A stretch of 64,000 bases of DNA from Phyllosticta citribraziliensis. Its lineage: Eukaryota. A program made the translations under genes and the position numbers. Under the pieces are notes generated by a model. It ran no database searches. It was not told the DNA's origin and saw only the letters and a list, made by a program, of their open reading frames with translations. The number at the start of each line of letters is the position of its first letter. Within the stretch, counting starts at the first letter, position 1. Below are positions 1 through 53,500 of this stretch, piece after piece. The stretch is taken from positions 1 to 64,000 of the forward strand of contig NW_027117355.1 in the NCBI RefSeq assembly GCF_038025025.1, read 5' to 3'.

Positions 1-382
1 CCATCCAACAAAAACAGGGAGTTGGATGGATCTGCTCGATGAACAAGATCCCTGGCACTGCGGCCACACCAACGGAGCATTCGTTCCTGCCGCAGTCTCT
101 AGACGTTTGAAGTTGGCACCGTTTGAGCTAGGCCGCATTAGGCACAGCCCAACCAGCCCTGCACAACCTCCTTCAGGTTACGTGAATTCAAGACCACAAC
201 GCGGAAGATATGTAAAGTATATTATCTACAGCTGTGATAGAGTCTAAAATCTCTAAAAGAATCCAACATTTCCCAACCCAAAAAGCGGAGAGATGCTCAA
301 GAAAGATATCCAAGGGTTTGCCCCATCCACCGCACGCCCCAGCCCTCTACCTTCCCTTCCCCCAGTCATCCATTGTCTCCGA

Positions 383-1812
383 CTATAGCTTGGCCTTTGA
401 TGCAGCGTCCTTGACCAGCCGGCTCCGCGGCGACCACTTGGCGTACGGGTGGTCCATGGTCGTGGGGACGAGGTGGTCGACGTCTAGCGTGTTGACCAGA
501 CCGGGGTGCAGTTCGTCGAGGTGCTTGACGCCGAGGTTGGCCATGGAGACTTCGATTTCGTCTTTCATGACTGCGGCGATGTTAGACGGTTGTTCTGGTT
601 TGGATTCCGGAGCAAGAGAGAGGGGAACTCACTGTCAACCAACTTCTCAACGCCCTCGCGGCCATAGTTCAACGCATACAAGAAATGCCTCCCCATACCG
701 ACAGCCGTCGCGCCCAAGCAGAGACACTTCACGACGTCAGTGCCCCTGCGCACGCCGCCATCCACGTACACCTCCAGCCGCTCAAACACCCACGGGCAGC
801 AGCGCTGCAGCTCCAGCAGCACCAGCACGGCCGGCGGACTGGTGTCGAGGCTGCGCCCGCCGTGGTTGCTGACGACGATGCCCTGCACGCCCGCCTCCAC
901 CGCGCGCATCGCGTCCGCTGCCCCTTGTATCCCCTTGAGCACGATGGGCAGGTCGGGCCGCAGCGACCGCAGCCACGCCACGTCGTCCCATGTGAGGCTT
1001 GCGTCGATGTAGGCCCCCATGACGCGCCCGAGCCCGCCGCCTTTCGCGTCGTTCGTGGCGCGCGCGCCGCTCATGGGCGCCGCGAGGTCGTCGGGCGCCG
1101 CAACGCGCTCGTCGGCCTCGCGCTTCCCGGGGACGGGGGCGTCGACGGTCAGGAAGAGGGCAGCAATGGCCGGGCGCGGCAGCGAGCGGACCAGCGACGC
1201 CGTCGCCGCGCGATCCCGCGAGACGTACAGCTGGAAGAAGACGGGGTGCGGCGGGGCCTTTGTCGCGCTGCCTCCACAGGCGTCGAGGATCTCGGGCAGA
1301 GGGTAGCTCGCATTTGTGCTGATGCACTGGCCGACGCCGCGGCTGGCACACGCCGCTGCCAGCGCGCGCTCGCCGTCGGGATGCACGAGGCGCGCCATGG
1401 CTGCTGGGCTGACGAAGAGCGGCACCGACACGTCGCGCCCCAGCATGCGTGCGCCTGTCGACACGCGCGAGACGTTGCGCAGTACCCGCGGCCGCCACCA
1501 GATGCGGTCGAAGCTGGCGCGGTTGGCGTCGCGTGTGAGTTGGTCGGTGGCTGCCGATGCGTAAAAGGCCCATGTTTTGGGTGCCAGCGTGCGCGAGGCG
1601 ACGGTTTCAAAGTCGTACGAGGAGAGGAGGGAGGAGAGTGGCGGTTTGGTGGCGGGAGGTGCGGCGGTTGGTGGTGGTTTGAGGAGTTCGTCCGAGGAAC
1701 TGGATGCGTTGTTGGAGGGCGTGGCGTTGGTGTTGAAGCTGGCTTCGAGGTCCGTTATCCGGTAGGGAGGTCTTTCGGGTCTGCCATTGTGATTGTAGTC
1801 TTTGAGGTGAAT
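383..1812 (-). CDS. FMN-dependent alpha-hydroxy acid dehydrogenase (cytochrome b2/L-lactate dehydrogenase-like); 5' end unresolved
   Basis: Motifs VVSNHGGRSLD, DGGVRRGTDVVK, WAFYASAATD, RIWWRPRVLRNV; intron 571-632 (GTGAGT..CTAAC..CAG) joins last exon 383-570; frame is open up to 1812 but has no in-frame ATG upstream of the conserved N-terminal motifs. Confidence 0.85.
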
Positions 1813-2332
1813 CTAGAGCACAAGAAGCAAAAACAGAATGTAGACGGAAAGATGACGATATAAAACACAATTCAAACAGTCTAGAATTGTAGATGACAAA
1901 AAGGGATCCAGCTCTTAAAAGTGTCAGTCATTCAACGAGGACGGGAAACTGTTCCCGCAAGTGTCGAGCAAAGTCTGGTCGTGATATCCTGTCAAACACG
2001 TCCCTGAGATGTTGGAAAGTCTGGGGAAGCGTGGGCCCAAGCTCGAGCTTTTGACGTCGACGATGTTGCGGGGACCGGGGAACGCTGGCGGCCGCTCGGG
2101 ATGAAGACCGCCCGAGATCGGACTGGCCATTGGTCGGAAACGGGTTCCCTAAAGTCGTAATGCCGCCGCTGTCGGTGATTGAATGAACTCAAGTTCAATT
2201 GCCGCTGAATTATTCTGTCGTCCGAAATCCAACAGTTGATGGTATCTAAGCTCCAAATTCAATGCTCTCCAATGCTTTAGTTGTTGAAACCCCTCTCCAA
2301 TGCCGTCGGAAAGATCAGTTCCAAATATCAGA

Positions 2333-3487: not shown

Positions 3488-3488
3488 A

Positions 3489-5181: not shown

Positions 5182-8100
5182 CTATAAGAATCGACTTGAT
5201 TTCCATCGATCGAGCCATCTACGTACTATCTCGACGGTAACCTTACTCCCCGCCTCAACGCTAGCCGTCTCAAACTGCACGCCCTCTCCATTCGCCTCCT
5301 GCTTTATGTCCTGGAAGAAGCCGAGCAACTTCAGGCCCGGGATCGCTTCTGCGCTTGCGTCGTCGGCGGCATTCTCCAGTCGTCGTACCCATTCGGTCAT
5401 GTCGACCCGCTCGAAAGGCGTTTCCGGGGCAGCGACAGCAAGGACGTCGAGGAACTCTGTCCAGGAAGAGGTAGCGGGGTTGACCAGGTTGTGCACTGCG
5501 TAAGACTCCTTCTGTTCTGTGGCTTCGCCGTTGGCGACGGTGTCGTTTTTGTTGCAACCCAATTTCTCGCTGATCGACGAAGCGCACATGTCGACGGGTA
5601 GCCAATTGACGACGGTTCCTGGGAGCTCGGGCATGGCCTGCAAGTGTTTGAGTCCGGTCGCGATCATGATGGGCCACATCTCCGAAGTGTTCCATACGCC
5701 GAGGCGTGAGTGTCCGCAGAGTTGACCGACGCGGAAGAGCTTGACAGGACTAGAGAGGGCCGCGGAATAGTGCTGAGTCACTCGTTCCACTGAGAACGAA
5801 GGCCATGTCAGTATGTGACAGGGCATCAAGATCGAAAAGGGCGGTAGCAACTGACCGATGTACTTGCTCTGTCCATATCCTGTGCTCAACGCCACCCTTG
5901 GGTCGTCGCCGACGGGCTCTTCGAGCACATTGCGCCCCTTGGCTGCTTCTCCCATGCATGCGGCGACACTGCTCATGATCGAGAACGTCTTTTGGGTGCC
6001 AGTCTGGCAAAACTTGAGAAGATGCATCGTCCCTGCAATCCGTTTCGTTAGCGACGCACACTTTTCAACAGGAATACGAAAGCCGTACCCTTCAAACAAT
6101 CCTTCTCGAACTCTTCCACCTTTTGGTTGAAGTCCATCTTCCATGCGTTGTGAACCACAACAGTCACTTCTCGAGTCAGCATGTCGAAAAGCTCTTCCCC
6201 GCTACCGAGATGTTCATCTTTCATGTCGTATGGGATGGCGTGTATCTTGCCACTGCAGTAAACGGCCTCATCATAGCCTCGTTGCTTCAGCGAGTGGATG
6301 AGCTTGATGCGCGGATCTGGGCCGCGGATTGCGCAGTAGACTTTCGAGACGTGTTCTTGCGCGACGAGATTCTCGAGCAAGGCGTTGCCGAGAGCACCGC
6401 TGGCACCGGTCAAATAGACGACTGCTCCCAGGCTTTCTGGGGGCACCGTTGTTGACTGAGAGTTGGTCCATCCGTCGATCGTGGAGTTGTAGCTCTGGAT
6501 GAGGTCCTGAACGTAGTTCAACCGTTGCGACTCGTTCGCCTCGGCTGGTGCGCCGCCATTTTTGAGGCCTTGGAGATAGACTAGCAACTTCTCGACCGAC
6601 GGACATTCAAAGATGAACATCAATGGAAATGTGCCGAATCGTTTGACAAGGCGCGACCTCAGTTTCACAGCGCGTTGTGAGTCCAAACCAAGGTCGTAAA
6701 AGCTCGTTCCGTCCTCGACAGCTGAATGCTCCTTGTCGCAAACTTCGGCTACCGACGCCCTGACGAATTCTCTGTCCGGCAGAGAGACCAGCTTGTCATC
6801 AGAAGGTCCTTCATCGGCTGGAGCGGCACCGAGGTAGCTTTCGTACAACGCGTCGACGCGATCTCCGTAGATTTTCCACGCCTCCTTCCTTCGCACGTTC
6901 CCTTTCGGGGTCACTGGGAGACTCTCTCCTGCGTTCAGTACCAGTACCATTTCCCTGTCGATACGTGCGTGCTTTGCGCTCTTCTGGTTCACCCGGTCGA
7001 GAACTTGCAGGAAATCTCCGCTTTCACTTGTGATTCCTTCCGCCAGCTGCACAATTGCCGCGACGCATGGTCGGCCATTGCCGAAGACAGCAGCTTTGTG
7101 GACAATCCCGTGGCCTTCTTCTTCCAGTAAGGCTGCCATTGTCCCTGCATGTGTCTTTTCTCCGTTGTCCAGAACAAGCACATCATCTTTCCGGCCGAGC
7201 AGCACAAAGTTTCCGGATCCCGGTGGGTCTTCGAAGAATAGATCATTGGTGCGGTATGGGTTCGGCGCGTCAGGGGCAAGCCACAGCTCCGCGGTGAGCT
7301 CAAACCCTTTGTAGATGACACACTCGAAGAGGCGAGTTCCAGCTTCAGAGTCATCTGCACCCACTTCTGTTAGAGGCTCCATCTGCACGAGCGGCGATTC
7401 CGGGTAAAGGTTGCGTAATCGGTAGCAATGCGGATTGTCCCGGGTGTGCGGGATGCTTCTGAATGGAGGTCCGATTTCAGTGCTTCCGTAGGTAGTCTTG
7501 ACGTTGACTCCTTTTGCGACCAACTCCTTGAGAACCTTCTCACCAAGTGGCGCGCCACCCGGTTGCACCACCTTCAAGTCCACGAGCGGGGAAAAGTCAT
7601 TTGTCGTGGCTGAGATGTACCCGTACAAATCTTCGATGACGCTTGGTGCACTGTGCAGACAATCGGCCGGCATGCCCACAGCAGCGAGTGCGCGGAAGGC
7701 CGTCAGGATAGTGCCGGGGGCCGGGGGCCACTGCAACGGAGGCATCGTCGTGGGAAGACCATTTGGCAGACCAGAGAAGGCAATGCAAAGACCCGCAATG
7801 TGGAACCTTGGTCAATGTCAGCCGATTGGGAAACGTCTTGTTCGCGAATGCTCCCTGGACACTTACAGCGGAAAACAGAGGTACCAGTTGTCCACCACGA
7901 ATGTGGGGAACAAGCGGTACATGCGTGCAATCAAACACAGACTCCGGTTTGTGTGAATGATTGGCTTCGGCATTCCTGTCGACCCAGAAGAGTGCAAGAC
8001 CATGGATTGGAGATTCCAGACGTCCTGAGCTTCGAATCCGTTGACCTTGGACTCATCATCGTCCTCCTTTTCTTTGCTCAATTCCAGTTCCGCCAGAGAC

Positions 8101-8922
8101 ACGAGCTGAAAGACTGTTCTTCCATTCTCCTTCTCTACTTGAGCGTCGAGAATTGTGGCATTCTCCTTGTCGGCGATGATACCCACGGCTTTGCACACAC
8201 CCAACAAGTGCTCTCGCGCGTTTGAAGCGTTCTTGTTGCTCAGGAGCAGGATCCTCACTCTCAACTGGTTGAGCGCTATTTGCGCAATGAGATAGTCAAT
8301 CGTGTTGCCGATTCCGAGAAGCGCGATAGTTGGTTGCTTGTGCGTGCGATTGGCATCCTGTATCTGCGCCGCAAGAATCTGCGCGTAGATACGGACAGCT
8401 GAGCAGACCAAGCCGTAGAACTCGTGCCAAGTGACAATTCGAAAAGAGTCATTGGCGGTGGTGGTGGGAAACAGAAAGGCCGGGTTTGTCGGTTGGGTTT
8501 GAGCGTTGTGCTTGACGAGCGAGGCGATGCTATTCAACTCCGGGTTCGCAAACCTGTTGGGGTGTGAGTCTTGTACTTGTATCTGCGTGGTCCAGCGTAG
8601 ATGGCATTATTTTCCCTTGTCGCAGCTGGTGTCGAACGGAAGGACGAGTGCCAGTATACTCCCAAAGAGGTCTTGTGGACGAATGCTCCCTGAGTCCAGC
8701 CACGATTCCAGGAATCGCCATCTTCTTTGAGTTTCACAGTGCTGTGACTTGACAGAAAGGCTAGGCGACATACCGTTTGCTATGCGGGTGTCCATGAAGA
8801 TTCCAAAATTTCTTGACTCTTTCCGGCGCATCTTCTGCCGGGAGAATGCTTGGGTCCATGATCTCTGGAATCACTTCATCGCCCGCGGTTGCCGACACGT
8901 CCGATAAAGCAATGGGAGCCAT
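5182..8922 (-). CDS. NRPS-like adenylation-thiolation-reductase (A-T-R; carboxylic acid reductase-like) enzyme
   Basis: A-domain motifs HSSGSTGMPKPI, YGSTEIG, YRTNDLF, GRKDD, PVTPKGNVRR; carrier motif LGLDSQ; R-domain LTGASGALG, HNAWKMDF, GYGQSKY; exon 1 MAPIALSDV.. splices in frame (KR|FANPEL) to ORF 7863-8537; several introns. Confidence 0.92.
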
Positions 8923-9573: not shown

Positions 9574-11332
9574 ATGGGACTCAGGCAACGTCTGGAACTG
9601 CGATCCGAAAATTCGGAGCTCGAGGCAAATGGCGAGAGCATTTCAAACAAGGACATGGATCCGATTCCACTGGGGTCACCCGAAAGAACATGGACATGGC
9701 CAAGCTTGCTGGGCTTTTGGGTTGCGGAGGCCTTCTCCATCTCCATGTATCAAGGTACGTACAAGAGCCATGAACAAGGAGCAGTCATTGACGCGCACAC
9801 AGTCGCTTCATCGTCCGTGAACAAAGGCCTGAATCCTGGTCTTGCCATTCTCGCAGTCATCGTCGGACATTTGCTCGTCTGCGTGCCGGCTATGCTTGAC
9901 GCCTTCGTTGGTTGCATTTTCGGCATCAATTTCCCCGTCTTCACACGCGCGTCGTTCGGCACTCGAGGTTCATACTTTGCTGTCTTCGTTCGCGGAGTCG
10001 TGGCTGCTATCTGGTTTGGTACACAAAGCTTTCAGGGCGGACAGTGTCTCCAGGTCATGATCAGTGCAATTTGGCCCAGCTTCAACGATTTTCCGAACCA
10101 CCTACCTGCCAGCGCGCACGTTACAAGTGCGGAGTTGCTGTGCTTTTTCTTGTTCATTTTGTTGCAATTGCCGCTCCTTTGGCTACACGTGTCGACATTG
10201 AGATGGATGTTCATGGCAAAGACGCTTTTGATGCCAGTCTTCGGCTTGACTTTGTTCATCTGGGCGCTGGTGGCTGGTTCGTTCCTCCGGAGCATTCGAT
10301 TGGTAGCGCAACATGCTGACAGAGCGCAGCTCACGGCTTTGGACCAACATTTTCTCGACCAACCAAGATTGCCGATGGCACTCCAGTTGCAGTTGTCTTC
10401 TTCCAGTGTGTCACCACAGCAATTGGCCCCAAGGCTACCCTTGCGCTCAACATGCCCGACTTCACGCGGTACGCCAAGTATCCGCGGGAAGTCTTCTGGA
10501 CACAAGCGGTTGGGCTCTTGGTCCTAGTGACGATGTGTGGCGTGCTCGGTGCGACAGTGTCTAGCGCGTCGGAGGTCATTTACGGGCAAGTGACATGGAG
10601 CCCGCTCGAAGTCGCGGTGCTGTGGGAGAACCGGGCGGCGCAATTCTTCGCGGGTCTCTGCTGGGCTTTTGCGGTCATTGGCACCAACATATCGGCGAAC
10701 AGCGTGAGCTTCAGCAACGATCTGGCGCTCTGGTTCCCAAAGTACATCAACAACAGACGAGGTGCATACGTCTGCGCGCTCCTGGGCATTTGCACTGTTC
10801 CTTGGAACATTCAGTACAAGTAAGCGACCCTGACTCACCATTGACTCTCATGATCTGACCTGAAACGCTCGTCGGCAGCGCAAAATCATTCTCCTCGTTC
10901 CTCAATGGCTACAGCCTCTTCCTGGGTGCCATTGCGGGCATCATCATCACAGACTTCTGGATTTGTCGCAAACGCCGTCTGTCGCTTTCATCGTTGTATG
11001 ACCCACACGGAATTCACCGTTACTTCTCCGGTGTGAACTTCCGAGCCATCATTGCCTTTATTTGCGGCATCGTGCCAAACATGCCGGGCCTTGCTGCAGC
11101 GTGCGGAGCGACAGGCGTGCCGAAGGGCGCAACGTACGTGTACAGCTTGAGTTGGCTGGTGAGCACGCTGGTAGCTGGTCTTGTGTACTGGGTATCGTTC
11201 AAGGTTGTGCCGTTCCCGGTGGATGAGAAGCAGGAGTTGGTGATTGAGGGAGGCGAGGTCGTGTCGGAGGACGCGCAATGGGTGGATGATAAGCACAGGG
11301 ATGCCGAAGCTTGCAAGGAGATACGGTCGTAG
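9574..11332 (+). CDS. NCS1 family (Fur-type) nucleobase/allantoin/hydantoin permease
   Basis: NKDMDPIP..RTWTW, GINFPVFTRASFG, WFGTQSFQGG, NMPDFTRYAK, NISANSVSFSNDL, FPKYINNRRGAY; many TM segments; three introns. Confidence 0.93.
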
Positions 11333-13633: not shown

Positions 13634-14011
13634 GATGGAAACTTGCCGCGCACGAGGAGCATTCGTGGGCAAGCGGCCATGTTAGTAGTAGTCCGCCAAG
13701 AACAGCTGTGGTGTTGCGGTGTCAGTCGGCTTGCCTATCTCTTCCGATAACCTCTCGACGTACTTATCAACTGGCGTCGGCCGCCTGTGCCGCACAACCT
13801 TCAACACCACACGGAACCGCAACCTTATCGCGACGCGCACAACCAACGGCAATGCTCAACGCTCTCCGGTCGGCCTACGGGCATCCCGTAACGACGAGCT
13901 TGAATGTTTAGAACGCCATGTTGATCTACTTATGCCCTCGATCCCCTGCTTGCGAACACGCGGTGCAGGACAACTGTTGTTGCAGAGACCAGCAATCCCA
14001 CTTCCGTTACG
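13634..14011. promoter_or_regulatory. Divergent promoter between the hydantoinase and the carbamoylase-racemase fusion
   Basis: 378 bp; GATA sites at 13735, 13745, 13763, 13824; CCGCCAAG at 13693; TGTGGTGTTG at 13707 (+) and 13801 (-). Confidence 0.55.
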
Positions 14012-15817
14012 ATGCCGCGCACTATCCGTCTTGCCGCCGCCCAGATGGGCGCGACGCACTACGCGGATCCCCGCCCGAAAACGTTGCAGCGCATGATTAC
14101 GCTGCTCGAATCCGCATCTTCAAAGGGCGCTCAAGTTGTTTTGTTTCCCGAAACGGCCTTCACCACCTTCTTCCCCCGCCATTTGATCAGTGATCCTGTT
14201 GAGCTCGACTCTTTCTTCGAACATGGCGACATTTCGACTCAGGCGCAGACTAAGCCCTTGTTTGATAGGGCAAAAGAGTTGGGTGTCGACATTTCCGTCG
14301 GCTTCGCGGAAAAGACGGATGAAGGCGAGACATTCAACGCCTGCATCTACTACCACGCTAAGACTGCCTCGATTCTTTCAAAGTACCGCAAGATACATCT
14401 GCCTGGCGACTTTGAACCTTTCGCGGATCCGGAGGCCACCAATCAGCTCGAAAAGCGATATTTCAAACCCGGCGATCTTGGCTGGCAAGCGTTTCGCGTA
14501 TCTGGGCTTGTCGAATCTCCGCCTGAACGTGGCGATCCCATCTTTGGCATGATGATATGTAACGACAGGAGATGGGCTGAAAGTTGGAGAGTCCTTGGTC
14601 TGCAGGGAGTGGAGGTCGTTTTGTGTGGCTACAACACCGCCGGATTCGCGCCACACCTCTGGGGCTCCGACAAGAACATGGATCCAGACCAGGCACGCGG
14701 AAAGGCGCTCTTCCATCACAAGCTGGTAATGCAGGCCCACAGCTACACCAACGCCTGTTTTAGCGTCAGTGCCGCTCGTTGCGGTTTGGACGACGGCAAG
14801 TATGATCTCATCGGCGGGAGCTGTATCACCGGTCCTGAGGGAGAGCTGCTGGCCGAGAACTCAACTTTGGAGGATGAGGTTATTGTCGCCGACTGTAACT
14901 TGGATGAGTGCAGAGCAGGGAAGGAACGCACATTCGATTTTGGCCGCCATCGGCGCGTTGAGCATTACGCCCGTATCACTGAACAAACGGGTGTCACGGA
15001 GCCCCCCAAGCTGTCGACGGAACCAAATGGCAACACTGCTGCTACGAACGCTCCCTCTGCGCGTACATCGGACAAGAAAATTCGCGTCCTTCTGATAAAC
15101 CCAAACAGCACGAAGGCCATGACTGATGCTTGCGTCTCCATGGCTCAATCTCAACTTCCTCCGGATGTCATTCTCACTGGATTCACGTCGCCGCGGCCTG
15201 CTCCGAATGCAGTAGAGGGTAACTTCGACAACATCATGTCCGCTGCCGCGGCAGCTCGGGCTGCGCTTCCACTGGCTGCGACACATGACGCCGTCTTGGT
15301 CGCGTGCTACTCCGACCACGCCCTCATTCGCATGTTGCGCGAAGAACTCCCGCATCAGCCTGTAATCGGAATCATGGAAGCCTCCCTCTTCGCGGCGCGA
15401 ACTCTGGGCGGTCGCTTTGGTCTGATTGCTGTCAGTGAGCGGAGCCGTGTCATGCACGAGGACTCGATCAGGCACTACGGCTTCGACGGATTCTGTGCAG
15501 GAGTTGTGAGCTGCAAGCTTGGCGTCCTTGACTTGCACGATAAGAGCCAAGAAGAAGTCATGGCGATTATGTGTGGAGTTGGCAAAGAGCTGGTGGAGCG
15601 CGGCGCTGACGTGTTGACGCTTGGGTGCGCTGGTATGACGCCTTTGAAGGCCGCCGTTGAGGAGGCTGTCGGAGAAGATGTGCAAGTCGTTGATGGTGTA
15701 CTGGCGGGCGTGCAGCACTTGAGTGGAATTGTCCGGATGGGAGGGCGAACAGCCAAGAGGGGAGTCTACAAGAGCTCGGCAGCTGGAAGGAAAGCAAGAG
15801 GTCAGGACTGGATATGA
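14012..15817 (+). CDS. Fusion protein: N-carbamoyl-D-amino-acid amidohydrolase (nitrilase superfamily) + Asp/Glu/hydantoin racemase
   Basis: 601-aa intronless ORF; N-domain FPETAFTTFFPR, KYRKIHLPG..LEKRYFKPGD, ICNDRRWAE (E-K-C triad, D-carbamoylase-like); linker; C-domain LINPNSTKAMT, ACYSDH, IGIMEAS, LGCAGM. Confidence 0.92.
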   Translation: MPRTIRLAAAQMGATHYADPRPKTLQRMITLLESASSKGAQVVLFPETAFTTFFPRHLISDPVELDSFFEHGDISTQAQTKPLFDRAKELGVDISVGFAEKTDEGETFNACIYYHAKTASILSKYRKIHLPGDFEPFADPEATNQLEKRYFKPGDLGWQAFRVSGLVESPPERGDPIFGMMICNDRRWAESWRVLGLQGVEVVLCGYNTAGFAPHLWGSDKNMDPDQARGKALFHHKLVMQAHSYTNACFSVSAARCGLDDGKYDLIGGSCITGPEGELLAENSTLEDEVIVADCNLDECRAGKERTFDFGRHRRVEHYARITEQTGVTEPPKLSTEPNGNTAATNAPSARTSDKKIRVLLINPNSTKAMTDACVSMAQSQLPPDVILTGFTSPRPAPNAVEGNFDNIMSAAAAARAALPLAATHDAVLVACYSDHALIRMLREELPHQPVIGIMEASLFAARTLGGRFGLIAVSERSRVMHEDSIRHYGFDGFCAGVVSCKLGVLDLHDKSQEEVMAIMCGVGKELVERGADVLTLGCAGMTPLKAAVEEAVGEDVQVVDGVLAGVQHLSGIVRMGGRTAKRGVYKSSAAGRKARGQDWI

Positions 15818-16989: not shown

Positions 16990-18013
16990 AGTTGAAATCG
17001 TCCGCGGTCGAAAAAGTGTCGTCGTAGTAAATGGTGGAGAGTCGATGTCGAGATTGCGTGCTTGTTTCGAGGTCGAGGCGAAGGAAAGCTGAATTATATA
17101 TTCTGTTCTCTTTCTTCGGTCTGTTTTGTTCATACATTGTTCACATTGCAGCCTTTGTCGCCAATCGCATCAAGACTTCTTTGTCTGTTTTTTGTTCAAC
17201 TTGCTCTTTCAGCACTATGGCCGAATTTGGCATGCGAGACCTGTTTGGAGGTCGACAAGGAGCATTCACGGGCATCAAAAAATCCACAGAGATCTCCGGG
17301 GATTATTTGGGTCGAGTTTCGGTTCATGGGAAGCTCATAATTTCGTGCCATGCTTGCCACCAGAGATAGGTATTTCTCTACCGACCGTCCTGCGAAACCA
17401 CATCAGCCTTCGACTTTGTCGTTTCTACACAAAGTATTGATGTTTTTGTTGCTCTCGGACGATGGCTGAATGTCAAAGCCAACAGCACCGGGCGGGGATT
17501 CGACCAAAATAGCTTTGTCTCGAGGAACAAAGACACCGTCAATTCGCCCAATCCACGATCCGGGCTGTCTTTTTGAGCCTCAACACCACGCATCCTCTCG
17601 TCGTCTCTTCAAAGACCACCCAAAACGGCACTCAAACCGGCAAGTGGTTGATCGGGCCGACGCACGAGCTCTTGACCACTTTCAGGCCTTATCATCGCGC
17701 TATCACCTTATATCATAAGCATTCAATTTTTTTCCCTCGTCCTCTTCCACCGCAATCTTCACGTCGGCGCCTTCCGTCCATATTTACCCGGACCCCGAAG
17801 TCGTCACGACGAGCACGTCCGCGAGAAGAAGAAGCACCGGAGGCCTCCAGCTCGCGGGAAAAAAAAAATGGGCCCGGCAAGACGGCGGCCTGACGACACG
17901 CCAATCACTTGCACAATGACCTTCTAGATCCAGCAGCGCGATTATTATTTAAATGAGATGGCGGAACTCCATTCCTGCGTTGCCCCCAGGTCCCTCGCTC
18001 AACTACTCCCACG

Positions 18014-19271: not shown

Positions 19272-19605
19272 GCCTGGAGGGATAAGATATGACACGATGA
19301 AAAAGAATAAGAGCCGCTTTGCAATGGAGACGTCTTCATGTAATGTAATAGAGAAAAACATTTTGTATATCAGTCTTCTAAGGCGCAAGCAACAAGGACC
19401 CACCGCAGGACTTCGAGATCAAAACCTGAGCGCAAGAAATGACATGGAGAGTGCATTGCGGAGGTTTTTGCAAGGAAGGTAGACACGAAAGCGCGATGAC
19501 TCCAGCAGAACGCGCTGACACTGGGGCGGGTTGACGAATGCTCCGCGTTCGAGCGCGCTGACATAGGCAGGGGCAGACAGATGAATGCTCCATGCGTGAA
19601 CGCAG

Positions 19606-37830: not shown

Positions 37831-38580
37831 TCAATCTGAAGTATCTTTCCCATTCCACGACTTTTTCACGCCCTGGACTCGTTTCCGCTTTCGTGCGACA
37901 AATTCTGGAGAAGCCGTGAACGGGTCCTATATTGGGTCAGCGAGAGTCAAGTCCAGGTAACGAGGCTCGGCCGCAAAAGTCGTGGCACAGACAACCCTGA
38001 GGTCTTGTGACTTGATGCTCGGGTGCTCGAATGCTCCTTATGGCCGCATTTCATCGACATTGGAATGCTCCTAAGAGAAACGTGGTGTTCTCAGTCACTT
38101 CGAGACGGAAGTGTCCATGGAGTTCATGCCGCAGAATTGGGGCCGCCAACTTTACCTCCTTGGTGAGTGTCTTCCTTCCGCTCTTCGGACCTTGAGCTGA
38201 TGTTTGTATAAGCTTTGATCCCGGTCCCGCATCTCGGTCTTTATGCCAACTCGAGGGCTCGGGTCCGAAATTCATAAGTCCGAGCACGCCAGCTGCTTAA
38301 GCCCGCTGCGACCATCGTGCATAAACACCGACTCTAGGCAGCAGAAACACCAGAAGATGCGTTGACGCTATTCAATTTGGGTTTGGTGACTCCTGCTCGA
38401 CGTCTCTGACATCAGAAGGACGATGCAATCGCCGAGGGCGAAGAGGACAGGCAGCTGGATTCATGTCCGAGTTTTGGGATATACAAGGGAGCTTCGAGCT
38501 CGAGAATTTCATTAACAGCTTCATCCACAGTCAATCAAATCCTCCTTTGAACACTCTTCGCTGCAAAGCAAAACGTCGAC

Positions 38581-39309: not shown

Positions 39310-39530
39310 GGGACTGGGATCCATGGATGAGGTCGTTGGGGTTTGTCATGGGGACCACGGGGACCACGGCACAATTTGTATGGAAAGCCGAGGTATGAAC
39401 GCTCCTTGGACGCTCCTTATGGGATAAAGATCAAAATCAAGTTTATTCTTGTGGTCATGAAGGCTATCGATGAGAGTGACGATACGTACAGTCCTAGGGC
39501 TCTAGAACCAACGCTCGAATGCTCCCGGTA

Positions 39531-40945
39531 CTATACTCTCATCAATGCTGCGATACCCCTGAGTACTCTGACGTGAAGAACCGACCAACGACGACTACGA
39601 CTTATGCAGCAGGCGCTGCAGGGCGGCAGTGTGAAGCCTCCCGGACAGTCGTCCAAACACGAGGCGCATTGCAGACACTGCCGGCAAGACGAGCAGCGGA
39701 ACCTGCAGCGACAAGCCGCGCAATTCACACACTTCCAAGTCGTCAGGGCGTTTGTGAACAGCGACAACCACACTGTCTCATTCAGCTGGACGCCCGCCTG
39801 TGGCGCGTTGAGGATGTCTTCAGGCAGGGTCAAAATCGACGACATCACGCGGCCGGTGCGGTCCTCCCTCCATGTTCGCCGCGCCCTCTGCACCCACGGA
39901 TCGTAGCAGTTGTGCAGCCGCTGCAGGCACTGGCGGACTGGGATGTGGAGGATGGCACTGACGAAGAACATGACGCAAAAGTCTTGATACGTTCGGATCT
40001 GCCCGATGGTAATTATCCAGGCAGGCAGGGGGCCGGAGCTGCCCGTCAACGAAAGGCCCAGGGGCCCAAGCGCGTGCGCGTGAGCTGCCAACCGCGTAAT
40101 CGCCATCGAGACGCCGTATAACAAGGCGAAGGTGCGGTTGCGGCAGCGGGCGCACTGGCCTTGCGGGACGACGATGCGCCAGCAGTATCGCAGGAATTGG
40201 CCGGTGAAGCGGATGTTGATGGCGGTGGTGTATCCGGTGGCCACAATGACGAACCAAGGGAGGGTGATGTGGATGAAGACGAGGAGCTTCGCCGTCATGC
40301 GGACGGCGAACCAGACGATGCGGAAGGGCAGGCACAGCATGGTCTCGATAGCGGCGAGCCTCTGTCGCCGCCGGTTGAGCAGCCGTTGGGAGCGTTCGCG
40401 CGTCGTTTCGTGGTGCGTCAGTTTGCGGATCCCTTTCAGAATCATGTATCCGACGGCGAGGGACCTGGCGACGGGGAGTCAGTGTTTTTGCAGATGATGA
40501 CGATGCCTTGAGAGCTCACTTACAGCACGAACACCTGGATGGCAACCAAACAGTCCACATGAGATTTGAACTGCCTGTAGTAAACAGTGTCGCGGAAGAC
40601 AGTGCCATTCATCATGACAGGAGTTGTGGGCGTCTCAATCACCGGCGGAGGGTCGATGGTCAGCCTCTTAGGGGGCTGCGGCACAGGCTCTGGGAAGGTT
40701 GTTTTCGCCATTTGCTGCTCGTAAAGGGCGTTCTGGTAGTCAAAATCGACATTTTTCTTTACAAACAGGCGTGCCGTATCCAATACCGAAGGAGGTTCGA
40801 TGAGTGGATCCGTTACGCGCCGGTATGTGACGGGCGGCGTGGGTTTTGGGGGTGGTGGCGCGGGCCTCGCGGCTCCCTGCGCGGGACTCTCGAATGCGAC
40901 CATTGTCGTCTTTATGGCTGCGGGTCGACATTTTTGTGGTGGCAT
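39531..40945 (-). CDS. Hypothetical membrane protein with Cys-rich C-terminus
   Basis: ORF 40520-40987 splices in frame (GTAAGT..CTGAC..CAG) to ORF 39531-40445; hydrophobic segments; repeated CxxC near the C-terminus. Confidence 0.6.
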
Positions 40946-41270: not shown

Positions 41271-43884
41271 CGGGAACAGAATGCTCCTCCTCTTCATGGT
41301 TGCAACTAAAATTCGAAAATCTCGATGGTTACCTAGAATTGAGCTATTTGCAGAGCTTTTTGCACATGGCGCCTCATTTGACGAAATTCGGAGAACTGGG
41401 CGAGGCCTCCATCTTCTGCTCACCCGTTTCCCACGTCAGGAGGAACGGCCTATAAGTAGACGTTGAATCGGAGTTCTTCGCGCATCCTCTACACTTGGTC
41501 AAAGTTGATTACCAAATGTACTTTTTTGCTTCTTTATTTCTCCTCCTTTTTTTTTGGATCCTAGACCTTAGTCTGTTTCAAATACTTGTGATTCAGATCC
41601 TATTAATGTAGAATCAATCCTTTGTGTCTAACCGATTCTCGTATGTGATATGACATCTAAGGTAGTGTCAGTTTGTCTCCAAAACGAGGGGCTGGCGTGT
41701 TGTTGGGAGTTGAGGACCCCAAGCGGCACAGTATTACAGCACGGAAACAAGAGAAAAAGAAATGGAGGATTGGATATTGTCTCACCGAGAAGAAAGCAAG
41801 GAAAGACCAAGAGTGGTCTCTAACCTTCTTATCCTCCTTCTCATTTTCCTCTCTGCTCCCATGATTTCTGGCGTTCAACACCATGGCCCATGATGCGCCG
41901 CCTTTTCTGATGCGCTGTCATTCGTGAACTAGAGCCCCCCACAACCTGTGGACGACCTTGTGCAAGGCTATTGCGCCACCTTCCGCTGAGTCAGACCCCC
42001 CTTCGACTCCGCCCGATTGTAGACGGCCTTCAGGCTACAATCTCCTCCGCCAAGCATGATCATTGCCAGTTGGTTGATGGGGCTGCTAGGTTGGCAAGTC
42101 AAAGAGTCGCGCAAAGGGCCTCAGGTGACGCTGAAAGTGGAGGCGCTGGTGAGTGGGCGCATTCGGAGGGCGAATCGGGCGTGATCTTGGGCGTGGATGG
42201 ATCGCTGGGTTGGAGATTTGGAAGGGCGCACATGAGGAATGAAGTGACATGGAAGGAGAGGTGTTGGTGGGCAAAGTTGACGGGGGGTGGTGAATGTCGG
42301 TCGAGGGCGAGTCCGGCGTAATGTTGGACGCGAACGAACTGCTTAGTTGGAGAGCCACAAACATTTCGCAGAGCAAAGGAAGGTAGCACAGTGGGTGTCG
42401 AAATAAACGAGGCTCTTTGCTTCTGGCTGTGGCAATGAGTGACTGCTCCCTTGGCGCAGCTGTAGTGGTGAATAAATGCTCCTAAGGCGTAACCATGGCA
42501 GCGAATGAATGCTTCCTAAGTGCGCTCGTGCTGGAAGAGTCTCTCATGCCTCTCTACACATACTATGGCAGGAATTCCGATCTGGTCGTGTCGCGTGCCG
42601 CTGTCAGCACCCGTGATAGGCAGAATGTATAGCTGACGGGGTGAAGGTCGAAATGAGACCTGAGCAAGGTCAAAACAGCAGAAATTCTAGTATCAGAATG
42701 CTGTTTATCCAGATGATGACCATATGAAGTCCAGAGCTCGTGGTACAGAACGTGGTAGGCTGGTGGTTTGCTGGGTCTCCAGCTACTTACATACTGAGCT
42801 ACCCAGTGCGTCGCCTACTTAGCATGTCTTGCAGACACGTCGTCCAGCATGTCTAGATTACGCCGAGTAATGTCGACGCGAGTTTATTTCGTTCGTTATC
42901 GCCGGAACGGCGGACAACTTGCTCGGCTCCTTCAGAAAATTTGAAATTAGTACATGCCCCCAGGACGGAGTCTCGATTCTAGCCGTCAAGGTTCCCGTCT
43001 TGGTCGGATTGAGCAGCCATCCTGGGACAGATCTTTGAGCGGGGAGTAGTGTACCCGACTGCAGCGCCTCGACCTCCTGACAACAAACGATATCCGTCTT
43101 TTCACATTCGCAATTTCTCCCGGCCCATCAAAACCATGTATCGAGCAGAGCAGGACGACTGCGGAGGGTGCCTGCTGGGCCCATCATGGTGGCTGAATGG
43201 GGCTTTTGCGTAAAAGATCAAGGTTCGATTGGGGCAGCGGTGACTGACTCCTTGCTCCGTCCCGGATACGGCAAGACCCGAACAAACGAAGAAAGAAAGA
43301 AAAGAAAAAAAGAGACAGGGAGCAAGCAGGCCCGAGACGGAGGTCAAGGAGGACTCGTACCTCGTACACTGGTGCTGTCGGTCAGGTGTGTGTGCACTGG
43401 GGACCTTTCGACGTGAGAAAGCCACTGCCGCACCGCGGCCAGCCAGGGAGGGAGCGTTCTCACCTAATTACCTACTGTACCAGCTCTGCGGTACAGTCAG
43501 TACAACCACATGACCACTGCCGCGCTCAAAGACAGTGCGTGGTTCCACCCACGCCCTCATCTCTCTCGCCCCGTTCCCCAAAGAGCGGTTTGCAACCGTT
43601 TCCAAACCTACCCGATGCAGGCATATGGAACGCCTTGATGCGCCACGAGCGCAGCGCAGTGCGGGACGCCCGTCGATCCATCTGCGCAATCGACCAAAGC
43701 TCCGAAGGGGAACAGAGGAACAAAAGAAAGGTGCACAGTGTTTGAACTAGCCGGAGACAGCCAAGAGCGAGGTCCAATAGGAGACGGAGAAATACCTACC
43801 TGTGCTTGCTGTGTCGTATACGTATACACAGCGCTGCTGCAGACGGGGGGAGAGTCCATCACAGACGGCAACTTCCTCTACCCC

Positions 43885-49922: not shown

Positions 49923-50586
49923 ATGCCTCTTCCCAAGCTCGCACCGAGCAAGACCAAAGGCGACTTCTTCCGAAGGTTGGGCCTCAGGGAAGATTGCCCG
50001 GCGCACAAGGAGCTGTACGAGCTGATGAAGGTAAGCCTGCCGCGCGAGGCTCACCGGGCCAAGGCTCAACATGGCTGACCAGGCTGTAGGAAGAGGCTGC
50101 TGAGGGCAGACGGCGTACGAGCCAGGATCCATCCAACTTGGTGCCGCAGTGCCGCGCCGACCCCACGGTGCAGCCGCCTTACTCGTCAAACCAGATAACC
50201 GAGACAGCCATGCACCGAGAAGTTTTGAACGTTTACCAGTCGGCGAGCGAGAGAACGAGACCGCTCTACGACCTGGGCCATTATATGGACGGGCGAAACG
50301 AAGACAACTGGATAATCCGATGGCTTCTCTGGCATGTCTTTCGTTATCGGGATAATCGGAATAGACACCGAGGTAGCGGAGCATCATCCAGCATTGCCGC
50401 CAGCGAGGCTGACGGTGCAGGCGATGCAGGTGCAGCCCAAGACGCTTCAGCAGATGGGAATCATGGCCCTGGCGGAGGCTCAACAGGGACAGGTGAGACG
50501 GTCCCCGGCCAGAAGGTCTTGGTGGATTTGCCACGTACTGACAGACGCTCACGACAGAAATGTACGATCCCGTCCGAGATCTCTAG
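49923..50586 (+). CDS. Small conserved-looking fungal hypothetical protein (3 exons)
   Basis: MPLPKLAPSKTKGDFFRRLGL..LMK|EEAAEGRR..NWIIRWLLWHVFRYRDNRN..|MYDPVRDL; canonical splice signals keep the frame. Confidence 0.75.
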
Positions 50587-53500
50587 AAGCTGGCTTTTAG
50601 AGCGGATCAGGCACACCTGACTGCCAGGTCGCCATGGACCGTTACAGCAGGGCTGACATGTTGGTTGCTGTCCTTCGGATGGGCGGCCAGGAATGAAACA
50701 AGACGTGGGTGGTCGATTTTGATTGTTTTTCGAAGCAACATATCCGGGTCTGGCTTGTCTTTTTTAATTCCTTCTACTTTCTTTTCAAAGCATCCCATGG
50801 GCATTATGGGCAGATATCTTGTTTGGTGCATCTGGCGTTGGCGTCACCGTCGCTTGAGGAGCCGAATGAAATGATGGTTCCCTTCTGCAAAGAAGTCTCT
50901 TGTTCATTCTGCCCGTCAATCCCAGCTCGGGGTGAGGTCAAGACTGGGCCAACATTGGAAACGACTGTCGTCTGGGCGATGGGCCAGAAGGACTGGGCCG
51001 CGGAGGCGTAGCGGAGCTGGACGGGCTGAAAGATTTGAGCGGAGCGGGGGAAGTCAGAAGTGAGAGAGAACAGGTTCCGAGGCGCGCCGGCATTGAAGCC
51101 AGGCCAACCTGGACCTGGACCTGGCGCCGATCGAGGGTGACTAAACCTCCCAACCGGACGGCTCCTTGCCGCCGTCAGGGTAAGTGCGAGAGCTTAATCC
51201 AACCTCGCCGAGAGCTTGTCTCTTCCCAACCCACACGCTGTCTTCATGTTGCGACCAGAAGACACGGCGCCCTGGGAGCGTTCGCGACGACAGTGCATCG
51301 GCCGAGGGCACCAACCCGACTCCATGTGACGACCTCGTCGGGCGACAGGAGCATGCGGCCAGGAAACGACCAAGGGGCCCAATCCCAAAACAACAGCCCA
51401 TCAGACCGGGACCTGTAAACACGCATCAGACCACCGACCGCGAACTCGAGCACGAGCAAAGAAAAAGACAACAAGCAAAACTCACCGTCACGTCAGAACC
51501 GCCCCATCCATGCGTCCACCTGCTGTTGGCCATGGAAGGTGACTGAAGGCGAGCGACCTGGAACCGTCAACTTCTCAAGGCCGCCATGCACCACGTCGAT
51601 CCCTGGCCCTGTTTAAAGGCACAGCGCCTGTGTCTTGTGGCGCTGCCATATCTGTTGATCAGTGCTCCACTTCACTCACAAACAACACAGCGTCGCGTCA
51701 GCAATTGCAGATTGTGGAACTCTTGACACTGTTGTCCCTCGCTCCAGCCTCTGCTCCGTGGCTCCATTCTCTCGTACCCCAGGCCCAACAGTCTCACCAG
51801 CCCTCACTCCGCCGTGGGCCAACCATCATCAACAACCCAACGTCGCACCGACCCGATGCAAGCAAAGCAGGGATGCCACGCGCAGGAGGGCGTTGGGCAG
51901 TTCTTCTGTCCAGCCAGACACTGCCAGCCAGAAACCATCTCGTTGACTTTGAGCAAAACCTGAACAAGCCTTGCGTGTCATCCGCCCACCCGTTGCACGA
52001 CTTCAGCCCTTTTCCAGCTTCCTTCGAGCGAACAGAACCCAAGCACTGCATCAGAGCGGCCCGAGTTCTCTCTCCGATCGATTGGCATGAATATTGACTT
52101 CTCACTTTAGGTTTAGAGGGCCCACATGGATTCTCGATCAAACAAGATCTTTGCTCGTCAGATCATGCACCCACCTCAAACCTGAGGCCGCCGAGACGCA
52201 TCCGACGCCCACCCTAGCCGAAACGTATCCGACACCCCTCCACCACTTCAAGTCCATCTCTTCATTCTTCGCCGCAGAGGCGAACTCCATACCGGTAGCG
52301 CGCGCTTCGATGGAGACACACCGGGCGACTTGGATGCCCACATCCCGTCTCTAGACCATGCTGTGTCATGTTGGGCGGGTTCCACAAAAGAGATGGTCAT
52401 TCATCCAGGGGTTGAAAAGAGACCGGCCGGGCAGCCAGGGCCGAGGACGCATCTTTGTCGGCCGGTTACCTACAACCGCCTCTACTACTCTGGATCGTGC
52501 GTCGCGCATACATAACCGTCCCCGCACATATATCTCGGAAACCCCGAGCTGCTCCACTCCCGCAATTCTCACCACCCTTCTCCTTTCGCCTCCGCCCTGC
52601 GGGAACTTGAATTATCGCGCCATAGTGGTTGTCGAAATGAACGAGACCTCTTGGTGTTGCAGGTGGTTGCGCTTTTGGAGCATTCGTTTACTATTGCAGT
52701 TATACCCAGGAAGTCTATTTCTTTCGACACACCCCACGGGCGCGATGCACCTTCCAATGACGATTCCGGCGCAGCTCACATGAAGCGATTCTGAACAAGT
52801 GAAATGCGAACACGCCGACTTCTGACACGTCTGCCGGCAGCAGCAGCACAGCCCAGCCCACAAAAAGACGGTCTTGCCATCTTCATCTGGAAAAGACTTG
52901 AGAGAGAGAGATCGGTTAACACCGGATCTCGGCGCCACAACACAGGGACCCGACCCACCCCACTCGCCCACCCAAGCCCACGGCACACGTACGGATCGCG
53001 CCCGCTCATCTCGCAAATCTGGGAAAGACTTGGGCGGTCGAAAGAATACCCGACCGACGACCGCGCCGCACCGCAGGCGGCCGAGCCAATGCGTCAACTT
53101 GCCGTGCGCGCCGCAAAGAGCCTCTTTTGACATTGAGGCGCTCTTGGTTGACGACAATGATGGTCACCCTGAGAGAGCTTCCACGCCGCCTGCCAGATCG
53201 CGGTCGTGCGATGTGCCCAAAGCGTGCGCAGCTGACGAAAAAGTGCGGAGGTTCGTCCAGCTCCGCAGATCGAGCGCGCCGTGCGGCGACGGAGAGACCC
53301 ATGTAGAAGGCGTCGCGGCCGATCAAATACACCATCTGCAAGAGGTTTTGTCAGCAGGCGTAGACAGTTGTGTTGTCGAATAAGGGTCACATTTCCCTAT
53401 TCCTTTCGTGCCGAGGTAGACATGTTGTTCTCGCCTTGAACATGACAGGCAGATGTTGTGAGTCTTGTGCGGTGCCTCAAGGAGTAGGAGTGTTCTCTTT

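What the first reader, a model, noticed from the sequence alone, without database searches (positions are those of the whole stretch)
74..52686. Dispersed motif (C)GAATGCTCC strongly over-represented and almost entirely non-coding
Seen: by eye I count at least 18 exact GAATGCTCC/GGAGCATTC copies, at about 74, 6724, 7846, 8681, 10289, 13656, 17259, 19536, 19583, 22599, 23832, 30433, 32577, 38029, 38063, 39517, 41279 and 52677. Twelve extend to CGAATGCTCC. GAACGCTCC variants occur at about 15046, 27449, 32616, 39397, 40389, 43451, 51275 and 54415. A simple base-composition estimate gives about 0.5 copies of a 9-mer on both strands of 64 kb. Seventeen of the 18 lie in introns, UTRs or intergenic DNA, on either strand. 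CGCTCGAATGCTCCCGG is identical at 23827 and 39512. Inference: a lineage-specific genome-wide signal, such as a site for an abundant chromatin or DNA-binding factor, a recombination or methylation motif, or the footprint of a tiny mobile element. I do not recognise it as a described fungal element.
Basis: partly seen in the sequence, partly recalled or inferred. Interest (0 to 1): 0.75.

Follow-up and report, generated by a model that had tools for sequence, protein, structure and literature searches.

The report
Unknown ten-letter motif beside fungal genes
A short DNA word, cGAAYGCTCC, recurs about thirty times more often than chance in the non-coding DNA around genes of this Phyllosticta-like fungus; it is probably the landing site of an unidentified DNA-binding protein, and I found no published description of it.

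Summary
There are 18 GAATGCTCC and 8 GAACGCTCC copies at the stated places, against about 0.8 and 0.7 expected.

The word is sharply defined as c-GAAYGCTCC-y. No other one-letter variant exceeds background.

- 23 of 26 copies lie outside coding sequence.
- Two lie in RNA-proven introns and one in a Pfam-supported intron.
- Flanks share no similarity, no hairpin, no partner motif and no Rfam family.
- Both orientations occur relative to genes.
- Close pairs and short tandem arrays are always head-to-tail.
- Copies are rarer in a 13.8-kb gene-free stretch than in non-coding DNA next to genes.
- 822 kb from 75 loci of other fungi show background counts.
- The nearest named relative is Phyllosticta.
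- No matching paper was found.

Best reading (confidence about 0.4): the site of an abundant sequence-specific DNA-binding protein acting at gene boundaries and introns. Whether the motif is genome-wide, and whether it is conserved in relatives, could not be tested.

Verdict: real, unexplained, moderately interesting. It is a new member of a known kind.

The parts
74..82 (-). T-form copy, about 300 nt after the stop of the FMN-dehydrogenase gene. It lies left of the telomere array, so probably on another contig.
6724..6732 (+). T-form copy, the only coding one. It lies in the PP-binding domain of the NRPS-like reductase, antisense to the gene.
7846..7854 (+). T-form copy inside the RNA-proven 60-nt intron 7805-7864 of the minus-strand reductase gene. 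It begins at intron position +13 and reads GGAGCATTCG in sense.
8681..8689 (+). T-form copy inside the RNA-proven 220-nt intron 8552-8771 of the same gene, antisense to it.
10289..10297 (-). T-form copy in the inferred 53-nt intron 10277-10329 of the plus-strand cytosine/purine permease gene. It is at intron position +13 and reads GGAGCATTCG in sense.
13656..13664 (-). T-form copy between the divergent amidohydrolase and nitrilase/racemase genes.
15046..15054 (+). C-form copy inside the nitrilase/racemase ORF (coding, sense).
17259..17267 (-). T-form copy about 90 nt above the ORF 16051-17169, in a divergent intergenic region.
19536..19544 (+). T-form copy between the convergent nucleoside-hydrolase and DUF6604 genes. 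First of a head-to-tail pair 47 nt apart.
19583..19591 (+). T-form copy, second of the pair. It lies 15 nt after the DUF6604 stop codon, on the opposite strand.
22599..22607 (-). T-form copy about 90 nt after the stop of the minus-strand gene 22699-23651, inside its RNA contig.
23832..23840 (+). T-form copy between two minus-strand genes. It is part of the 17-mer shared with 39512.
27449..27457 (+). C-form copy about 400 nt above the amino-acid permease gene.
28523..28607 (+). Three one-mismatch copies (28523, 28561, 28599) in a 38-nt tandem repeat (2.5 units, 82% matches) inside the permease intron.
30433..30441 (-). T-form copy between the convergent permease and flavin-reductase genes, about 120 nt after the latter's stop.
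32577..32585 (+). T-form copy 23 nt after the stop of the short-chain dehydrogenase gene. First of a head-to-tail pair 39 nt apart.
32616..32624 (+). C-form copy, second of that pair.
38029..38037 (+). T-form copy between the PIG-M and O-methyltransferase genes. First of a head-to-tail pair 34 nt apart.
38063..38071 (+). T-form copy, second of that pair.
39397..39405 (+). C-form copy 88 nt after the O-methyltransferase stop, followed 11 nt on by a one-mismatch copy (39408).
39517..39525 (+). T-form copy 6 nt after the stop of the convergent minus-strand gene. It is part of the shared 17-mer.
40389..40397 (-). C-form copy inside the ORF 39534-40478 (coding, sense).
41279..41287 (+). T-form copy about 200 nt above the minus-strand gene that ends near 41050.
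42441..42515 (+). Three one-mismatch copies (42441, 42474, 42507) spaced 33 nt apart. This looks like an older, diverged tandem array.
43451..43459 (-). C-form copy in the 13.8-kb stretch with no coding signal.
51275..51283 (-). C-form copy in the same stretch.
52677..52685 (-). T-form copy in the same stretch.
54415..54423 (+). C-form copy about 590 nt after the stop of the TFIIH p62 gene, on the opposite strand.

Best explanation
cGAAYGCTCCy is the recognition site of an abundant, sequence-specific DNA-binding protein of this Phyllosticta-like lineage. The protein reads about 10 contiguous base pairs as a monomer. Examples of that kind of reader are a three- or four-finger C2H2 protein or a Myb-type protein. 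Its sites sit in the non-coding DNA immediately around and inside transcription units: 3' ends, short intergenic spacers and introns. This suggests a general gene-boundary role of the general-regulatory-factor type, such as opening or phasing chromatin or blocking read-through polymerase, rather than control of one pathway. Shown: the motif's sharpness, its excess, its non-coding and gene-proximal placement, its orientation independence, the lack of any extended repeat or RNA fold, and its absence from other fungi sampled. Inferred: that a protein binds it, what kind of protein, and what binding does.
For: (1) Excess: 18 T-form and 8 C-form copies against about 0.8 and 0.7 expected. Within non-coding DNA alone, 17 against 0.4-0.9 and 6 against 0.3-0.6. 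Coding DNA is at background, 1 against 0.15-0.3 and 2 against about 0.35.
(2) A sharply defined linear word: only position 4 tolerates a change (T 18, C 8). All 26 other one-letter variants occur 0-3 times against 0.2-1.1 expected. Position -1 is C in 16 of 26. This is how a protein-DNA recognition site looks.
(3) No strand rule. By my hand-made gene map, 12 copies are on the strand of the host or nearest gene, 10 are on the other strand and 4 are unassignable.
(4) Flanks are unrelated, there is no enclosing hairpin (mean -7.5 against -7.0 kcal/mol in shuffles, and 18.5% of shuffle sets do as well), no partner k-mer survives about 600-800 tests, and there is no Rfam or tRNA match.
(5) Gene-proximal placement: convergent spacers 2.4 per kb, introns 2.5 per kb, tandem spacers 1.2 per kb, divergent spacers 0.56 per kb, against 0.36 per kb in a 13.8-kb stretch with no coding signal and normal composition. 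Only 1-2 of 17 non-coding T-forms lie in that 40% of the non-coding DNA (P 0.002-0.012).
(6) Homotypic clustering: 8 neighbour pairs 9-50 nt apart among 52 sites with at most one mismatch (3.2 expected), all head-to-tail. In the three exact pairs the spacers are only 32-41% identical while the core is intact, as expected if the core is under selection.
(7) Lineage turnover of such sites is known for yeast general regulatory factors (PMC2897762, abstract seen). GRFs also act as polymerase roadblocks (PMC5052057, abstract seen).
Against: No binding, accessibility or conservation data could be obtained. Genome-wide spread is unknown: 17 of 18 T-forms lie 3-38 kb from one telomere array, among accessory metabolic genes. 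The spacers next to the housekeeping genes (translin/PIG-M promoter, TFIIH p62/RRF, RRF/next gene, upstream of PDR) hold no exact copy, although only about 2.7 were expected there. A classical promoter factor should favour divergent promoters, yet these have the lowest density of the gene-proximal classes. Counted by regions rather than copies, the classes do not differ (4/7, 3/5, 3/7, 3/12). Two short introns carry the motif at exactly position +13 in the same sense, which hints at an RNA-level or intron-linked role. At one site (22599) a contig of a related organism (run X4) reads a one-letter-different version, so that site is not strictly kept. The motif matches no factor consensus I could verify.
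Confidence: 0.4

Rival explanations
1. It is the site of a pathway-, cluster- or subtelomere-specific transcription factor that co-regulates the accessory metabolic genes in the first about 40 kb after the telomere. These genes are the NRPS-like reductase, permeases, amidohydrolase, nitrilase/racemase, nucleoside hydrolase, flavin reductase, dehydrogenase and O-methyltransferase.
For: 17 of 18 T-forms lie between 6.7 and 41.3 kb, and the genes there are of that kind. There are no exact copies beside the translin, PIG-M (5' side), TFIIH p62 or RRF genes. A published cluster-specific promoter motif in Fusarium graminearum (butenolide cluster; passage of PMC4198257 seen) shares the eight letters AATGCTCC in 4 of its 8 listed genes.
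Against: Copies lie in introns and in 3'-3' spacers at least as densely as in promoters. One copy (74) lies on the other side of the telomere array, probably on another contig. C-forms also occur at 43-54 kb. The terminal G of the Fusarium motif follows only 3 of 26 copies here. No transcription-factor domain was found in the region.
Confidence: 0.17
2. It works in RNA, as a binding site for an RNA-binding protein or small RNA in introns and untranslated regions.
For: The highest densities are in classes that are transcribed: introns and convergent 3' regions. Seven copies lie inside spliced-transcript contigs. Both short motif-bearing introns have it at +13 in the same sense. Every 3'-region copy except 23832 can be read in sense within a plausible 3' UTR of some gene.
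Against: There is no strand rule: 12 same strand against 10 opposite. Intron copies read GGAGCAUUC, while unambiguous 3'-UTR copies (22599, 32577) read GAAUGCUCC. There is no fold and no Rfam match. In convergent spacers a 'sense' reading is always available, so it carries no weight.
Confidence: 0.12
3. It is an initiator-type core-promoter word that starts sense and antisense transcripts, with the Y-G step as the start point.
For: Two contigs of RNA run X2 end inside copies, at 13659 and 15050, and both extend in the motif's 3' direction. The variable position followed by G gives a pyrimidine-purine step.
Against: This coincidence was noticed after the fact, in 6 listed of 21 laid X2 records. 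Contigs cannot show RNA ends, as itself states. Roughly half of the copies would have to drive antisense RNAs. Three sit in introns of expressed genes.
Confidence: 0.07
4. It is a recombination or instability core, like the shared core of minisatellites, that promotes local tandem duplication.
For: There are five head-to-tail arrays or pairs with 33-47-nt units that share only this core. One is a clear recent 38-nt tandem repeat.
Against: Most copies are single. Tandem duplication of any protein-binding site gives the same picture. In the two arrays that are clearly duplications, the core has decayed about as fast as the rest (one mismatch in each of 6 units). Nothing here measures recombination.
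Confidence: 0.07
5. It is the decayed remnant of a small mobile element or introner-like element.
For: 3 of 12 supported introns hold a copy. Introner-like elements are known in Dothideomycetes (recalled; no paper was read here).
Against: Flank similarity equals controls once overlapping neighbours are set aside. No terminal or target-site repeats were seen when reading the aligned flanks. Copies are rarer, not commoner, in the gene-free stretch. A 9-mer kept intact while all flanks are randomised needs selection, which this reading does not supply.
Confidence: 0.05

Closest known systems
Sites of yeast general regulatory factors (Reb1, Abf1, Rap1, Cbf1, Mcm1; Sap1 in fission yeast)
   Same: A short, sharply defined word present at a large share of genes, in non-coding DNA at gene ends and in either orientation. 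Such factors are replaced between fungal lineages (PMC2897762) and can block polymerases (PMC5052057). Abstracts only were seen.
   Different: No binding protein is known here. The word resembles none of the consensus sites I could verify. Its density is highest in introns and 3'-3' spacers rather than promoters. Genome-wide spread is untested. A remembered likeness to Myb-type Reb1/TTF-I terminator sites could not be confirmed in the library and carries no weight.
Cluster-specific promoter motif of the Fusarium graminearum butenolide gene cluster (PMC4198257)
   Same: It shares the letters AATGCTCC, and it recurs beside neighbouring metabolic genes (passage seen).
   Different: The published motif sits in the promoters of eight cluster genes and ends in CCG. 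Here the following base is G in 3 of 26 copies, the copies lie in introns and 3' regions too, and the organism belongs to another class of fungi.
TEA/ATTS factor sites (AbaA, Tec1; core recalled as CATTCY)
   Same: The reverse strand contains CATTC.
   Different: The next base is G in 16 of 26 copies and a pyrimidine in only 5. The further five fixed letters are unaccounted for. The consensus is recalled, not checked.
Introner-like elements and MITEs
   Same: Copies occur in introns and intergenic DNA alike.
   Different: No similarity beyond about 11 letters and no terminal repeats.
Minisatellite core sequences
   Same: Unrelated 33-47-nt tandem units share one short core.
   Different: Arrays have only 2-3 units, most copies are single, and no instability data exist.

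Membership tests
General-regulatory-factor / roadblock-type protein-binding site | Short, specific word strongly over-represented in non-coding DNA | tested here: met
   18 and 8 copies against about 0.8 and 0.7 expected. 23 of 26 are non-coding.
General-regulatory-factor / roadblock-type protein-binding site | Works in either orientation relative to genes | tested here: met
   12 on the same strand, 10 on the opposite strand, 4 unassigned (hand map).
General-regulatory-factor / roadblock-type protein-binding site | Present genome-wide at a large share of genes | not testable with these tools
   No genome was held. Only 64 kb was seen, with 1 copy on a probable second contig.
General-regulatory-factor / roadblock-type protein-binding site | Occupied by a protein and flanked by a nucleosome-free region | not testable with these tools
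   No chromatin or binding data were on hand.
General-regulatory-factor / roadblock-type protein-binding site | Matches the consensus of a known factor | tested here: not met
   Literature searches for the word and its variants found no factor site. No motif library was available.
Cluster-specific transcription-factor site | Confined to promoters of one co-regulated gene cluster | tested here: not met
   Copies lie in 3 introns, in 4 of 7 convergent spacers and left of the telomere array.
MITE / introner-like repeat family | Sequence similarity extending beyond the core; terminal inverted or target-site repeats | tested here: not met
   Flank alignment scores equal controls (mean 6.0 against 5.9). 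No repeats were seen in the aligned flanks.
Structured RNA motif (hairpin loop) | Flanks pair around the motif more than chance allows | tested here: not met
   26 sites, 200 flank shuffles each; 18.5% of shuffle sets do as well. There were no Rfam hits.
Strand-specific RNA cis-element or core-promoter word | Fixed orientation relative to the transcript | tested here: not met
   12 against 10. Only 22 copies are assignable, so the test is weak.
TEA/ATTS site | CATTC followed by a pyrimidine (recalled consensus) | tested here: not met
   G follows in 16 of 26 copies.
Minisatellite core | Shared core in otherwise unrelated tandem units | tested here: inconclusive
   Five arrays or pairs of 2-3 units, all head-to-tail. 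Hypervariability is not testable.

The most novel reading that the evidence does not exclude
The word is a genome-wide punctuation mark of the Phyllosticta lineage, on the order of 9,000-12,000 copies. That figure extrapolates 18+8 copies per 64 kb to the roughly 31-Mb genomes reported for the genus (PMC6859488, passage seen). On this reading the word is bound by a newly recruited architectural or roadblock factor that marks the transcribed non-coding edges and introns of most genes. This would be a filamentous-fungus counterpart of yeast general regulatory factors, with a placement rule (3' ends and introns over promoters) not described for them.
Probability: 0.25. Interest if true: 0.7.

Novelty: new member of a known kind. 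Interest (0 to 1): 0.5.

Why it matters
General chromatin-organising and insulating factors are well mapped in yeasts but hardly at all in filamentous ascomycetes, which include many plant pathogens and endophytes. A ten-letter word present about once per gene, specific to one lineage and with an unknown reader, gives a direct handle for finding such a factor. It would also help in studying how gene boundaries, read-through and antisense transcription are controlled in compact fungal genomes. It is useful for annotation as well, as a marker of non-coding, gene-proximal DNA. If it turns out to be confined to this chromosome end, it would instead mark a subtelomeric regulon, which is of narrower interest.

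Tried and rejected
- Whole genome: none was held. Records behind the metagenome loci cannot be searched.
- Earlier findings of the scan: nothing relevant.
- Sequencing runs: no RNA holder is listed on record. Runs X1 and X2 nevertheless gave spliced contigs. Parts of the stretch with little cover, such as around 16-17.3 kb in X1, are not used as evidence.
- Extended repeat family: rejected.
- Enclosing hairpin: rejected.
- Partner motifs in the 40-nt flanks: none survives multiple testing.
- Rfam and tRNA scans: nothing.
- Methylation-type CpG decay producing the T-form from the C-form: CpG observed/expected is about 1.0, and the CG just before the motif is kept in 16 of 26 copies.
- Heat-shock-element reading (GAA..TTC-like): the TTC variant GAATGTTCC occurs once, which is background.
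- Subtelomere-only reading: cannot be separated from chance and gene content with one window.
- Literature: nine full-text searches found only primers, unrelated hits and the Fusarium cluster motif. They covered the 9-mers, 8-mers with 'motif, fung, promoter', 10-mers and C-forms, Phyllosticta with motif/intergenic, Phyllosticta with repeat/promoter, GRF and roadblock terms, and a recalled Reb1-site fragment. One Phyllosticta review does not contain the word 'motif'.
- Identity of the 595-aa ORF in the gene-free stretch: Pfam gave nothing and the Atlas search was inconclusive.
- Control for 'every fungus has such a word': in 21 other fungal loci of at least 20 kb, the top non-simple 9-mers are mostly 4-6 copies, and the higher ones sit among overlapping, similarly frequent 9-mers, as longer repeats would give (its counts are printed doubled).

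Full report
OBSERVATION.
- GAATGCTCC occurs 18 times on both strands. Expectation is 0.76 from 100 dinucleotide-preserving shuffles, and the largest shuffle count is 4.
- GAACGCTCC occurs 8 times against 0.71 expected, with a maximum of 3.
- Twelve copies extend to CGAATGCTCC.
- The 17-mer at 23827 and 39512 is identical.
- Markov models of order 0-4 expect 0.5-0.9 copies and order 5 expects 2.2. Only order 6, which is fed by the motif's own 7-mers, comes near at 8.5.
- Apart from telomere and homopolymer words, this is the most over-represented 9-mer of the window.
- Independent data hold the same letters. Spliced RNA contigs of run X1 cover seven copies without a single difference.

THE WORD. 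Only position 4 varies (T 18, C 8). Each of the other 26 one-letter variants occurs 0-3 times against 0.2-1.1 expected. The base before the word is C in 16 of 26 copies. The base after is C or T in 21 of 26. Weaker preferences run to about +16. The unit is therefore a non-palindromic word of about 10-11 letters, cGAAYGCTCCy.

WHERE IT LIES. The window is from an ascomycete. The nearest named homologue of its TFIIH p62 ORF is from Phyllosticta capitalensis (94% identity over 99% of the query). Botryosphaeriaceae follow at 70-73%.

Pfam, codon bias, period-3 signal and the spliced contigs give a map of about 22 genes. A codon-bias mask covers 46% of the window. It contains 1 of 18 T-forms and 2 of 8 C-forms (binomial P about 2e-4). 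Within non-coding DNA the excess is 17 against 0.4-0.9 and 6 against 0.3-0.6, while coding DNA is at background.

Copies 7846 and 8681 lie in introns that run X1 splices out. Copy 10289 lies in a 53-nt intron inferred from two Pfam-matched exons and from splice signals.

By class:

| Class | Copies per kb | Regions with a copy |
|---|---|---|
| Convergent 3'-3' spacers | 2.4 | 4 of 7 |
| Supported introns | 2.5 | 3 of 12 |
| Tandem spacers | 1.2 | 3 of 5 |
| Divergent spacers | 0.56 | 3 of 7 |
| Gene-free stretch 41.1-54.9 kb | 0.36 | - |
| Coding DNA | about 0.1 | - |

The 13.8-kb stretch at 41.1-54.9 kb has no Pfam match, no period-3 signal and ordinary composition. The class boundaries are my own approximations. 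Counted by regions rather than copies, the gene-proximal classes do not differ. Only 1-2 of the 17 non-coding T-forms fall in the gene-free stretch, which is 40% of the non-coding DNA (P 0.002-0.012, depending on whether 41279 is counted with its neighbouring gene).

Relative to the host or nearest gene, 12 copies are on the same strand, 10 are on the opposite strand and 4 cannot be assigned (hand count).

WHAT IT IS NOT.
- Flanks of 60 nt are no more alike than control flanks taken 100-250 nt away. The only high scores are overlapping neighbours. It is therefore not a repeat family, MITE or young introner.
- A hairpin enclosing the word is no better than with shuffled flanks.
- No second k-mer accompanies it.
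- Rfam and tRNA scans are empty.
- CpG is not depleted, so the T-form is not a deamination product of the C-form.

LINEAGE. A scan of metagenome contigs with the window's ABC-transporter ORF returned 75 fungal loci (822 kb, 58-79% protein identity). They hold 7 T-forms and 12 C-forms against 8.8 and 8.1 expected, and 15 of the 75 loci have any copy. The word is therefore not a general fungal feature.

None of those loci is a close relative, so the depth of the lineage that carries the word is unknown. One contig of run X4 comes from a relative with 2,225 differing places over the 20,000 bases laid. It leaves the alignment just before copy 22599, and its next letters end in a version of the word with one letter changed. 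That single site is therefore not strictly conserved.

ARRANGEMENT. There are 52 sites with at most one mismatch. Among them, 8 neighbour pairs lie 9-50 nt apart (3.2 expected), and all 8 are head-to-tail (P 0.004).
- One array is a clear 38-nt tandem repeat in the amino-acid permease intron.
- One is an older 33-nt array.
- The three exact pairs have spacers only 32-41% identical around intact cores. This fits selection on the core or independent births of sites.

MECHANISM. The features are a sharply defined linear word, indifference to strand, unrelated flanks, gene-proximal placement, clustering and lineage specificity. Together they fit best the recognition site of an abundant sequence-specific DNA-binding protein. 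Copies sit at 3' ends, in introns and in short spacers of unrelated genes. For that reason I favour a general gene-boundary factor of the kind known from yeasts. Such factors are replaced between lineages (PMC2897762) and can stop polymerases (PMC5052057); I saw only the abstracts of both papers. My confidence is about 0.4. The binding itself, the protein class and the effect are all inferred.

RIVALS.
- A cluster- or subtelomere-specific factor (0.17). 17 of 18 T-forms lie 3-38 kb from a telomere array among accessory metabolic genes, and a Fusarium cluster motif shares eight letters (PMC4198257, passage seen). However, copies in introns, in 3'-3' spacers and on the far side of the telomere array speak against it.
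- An RNA-level element (0.12). The motif sits at +13 in the same sense in both short motif-bearing introns, but overall there is no strand rule.
- An initiator-like word (0.07). Two X2 contig ends fall inside copies, a coincidence noticed after the fact.
- A recombination or minisatellite-type core (0.07).
- A decayed mobile element (0.05).

LIMITS. Only 64 kb could be examined. Orientation and class tests rest on 22-26 copies and on a gene map made by hand. Whether the motif is genome-wide and whether it is conserved, which are the two decisive questions, remain open. Supplements of the cited papers were not read.

Noticed in passing
window 3487-3620: There are 22 perfect CCCTAA units. A gene (cytidylyltransferase-like, minus strand) is cut off at about 3488 on the left, and extremely AT-rich DNA starts on the right. 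The repeat's orientation fits the left end of the sequence that runs rightward. The window therefore probably joins the end of one contig to the telomeric start of another.
   Followed up: partly
window 3621-5150: This subtelomeric block has GC 0.17 and no CpA, TpG or CpG dinucleotides at all, with 73-nt and shorter AT-rich tandem repeats. It looks like DNA driven to completion by repeat-induced point mutation.
   Followed up: partly
window 41100-54900: This 13.8-kb stretch has ordinary GC (0.57) but no Pfam match, no codon bias and no period-3 signal. Yet it holds stop-free frames up to 595 codons (43888-45672, minus), far longer than chance predicts. What it is remains unexplained.
   Followed up: partly
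window 7805-7864 and 10277-10329: The two short introns that carry the motif both have it at intron position +13, reading GGAGCATTCG in the sense of the intron and followed by a GCTGACA branch-site-like word. Chance is roughly 1 in 25.
   Followed up: partly
window 13659 and 15050: Two contigs of RNA run X2 end inside motif copies (12204-13659 and 15050-15971), and both extend in the motif's 3' direction. Contigs cannot show RNA ends, so this may be chance.
   Followed up: no
window 9500-19270: A run of genes looks like a nitrogen-scavenging set: a cytosine/purine-family permease, an amidohydrolase, a single ORF joining a carbon-nitrogen hydrolase to an Asp/Glu/hydantoin racemase (13925-15814), and an inosine-uridine nucleoside hydrolase.
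   Followed up: no
window 28527-28622: A 38-nt tandem repeat (2.5 units, 82% matches) lies inside the intron of the amino-acid permease gene, and each unit carries a one-mismatch motif copy.
   Followed up: yes
window 41081-41220: A 75-nt tandem repeat (1.9 units, 76% matches) lies about 60 nt before motif copy 41279.
   Followed up: no
window 10735-10771, 13018-13055, 22032-22074: Pieces of about 40 nt are matched by X1 (and partly X2) contigs that run on with unlike sequence at both sides (table 7), as if short segments were shared with transcripts from elsewhere in the genome.
   Followed up: no
L049, L067-L072 (metagenome loci): Several loci of other fungi have 9-mers with 10-18 copies per 22 kb (whose counts are printed doubled). 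Their top words include similarly frequent, partly overlapping 9-mers, so these are probably longer repeats.
   Followed up: no
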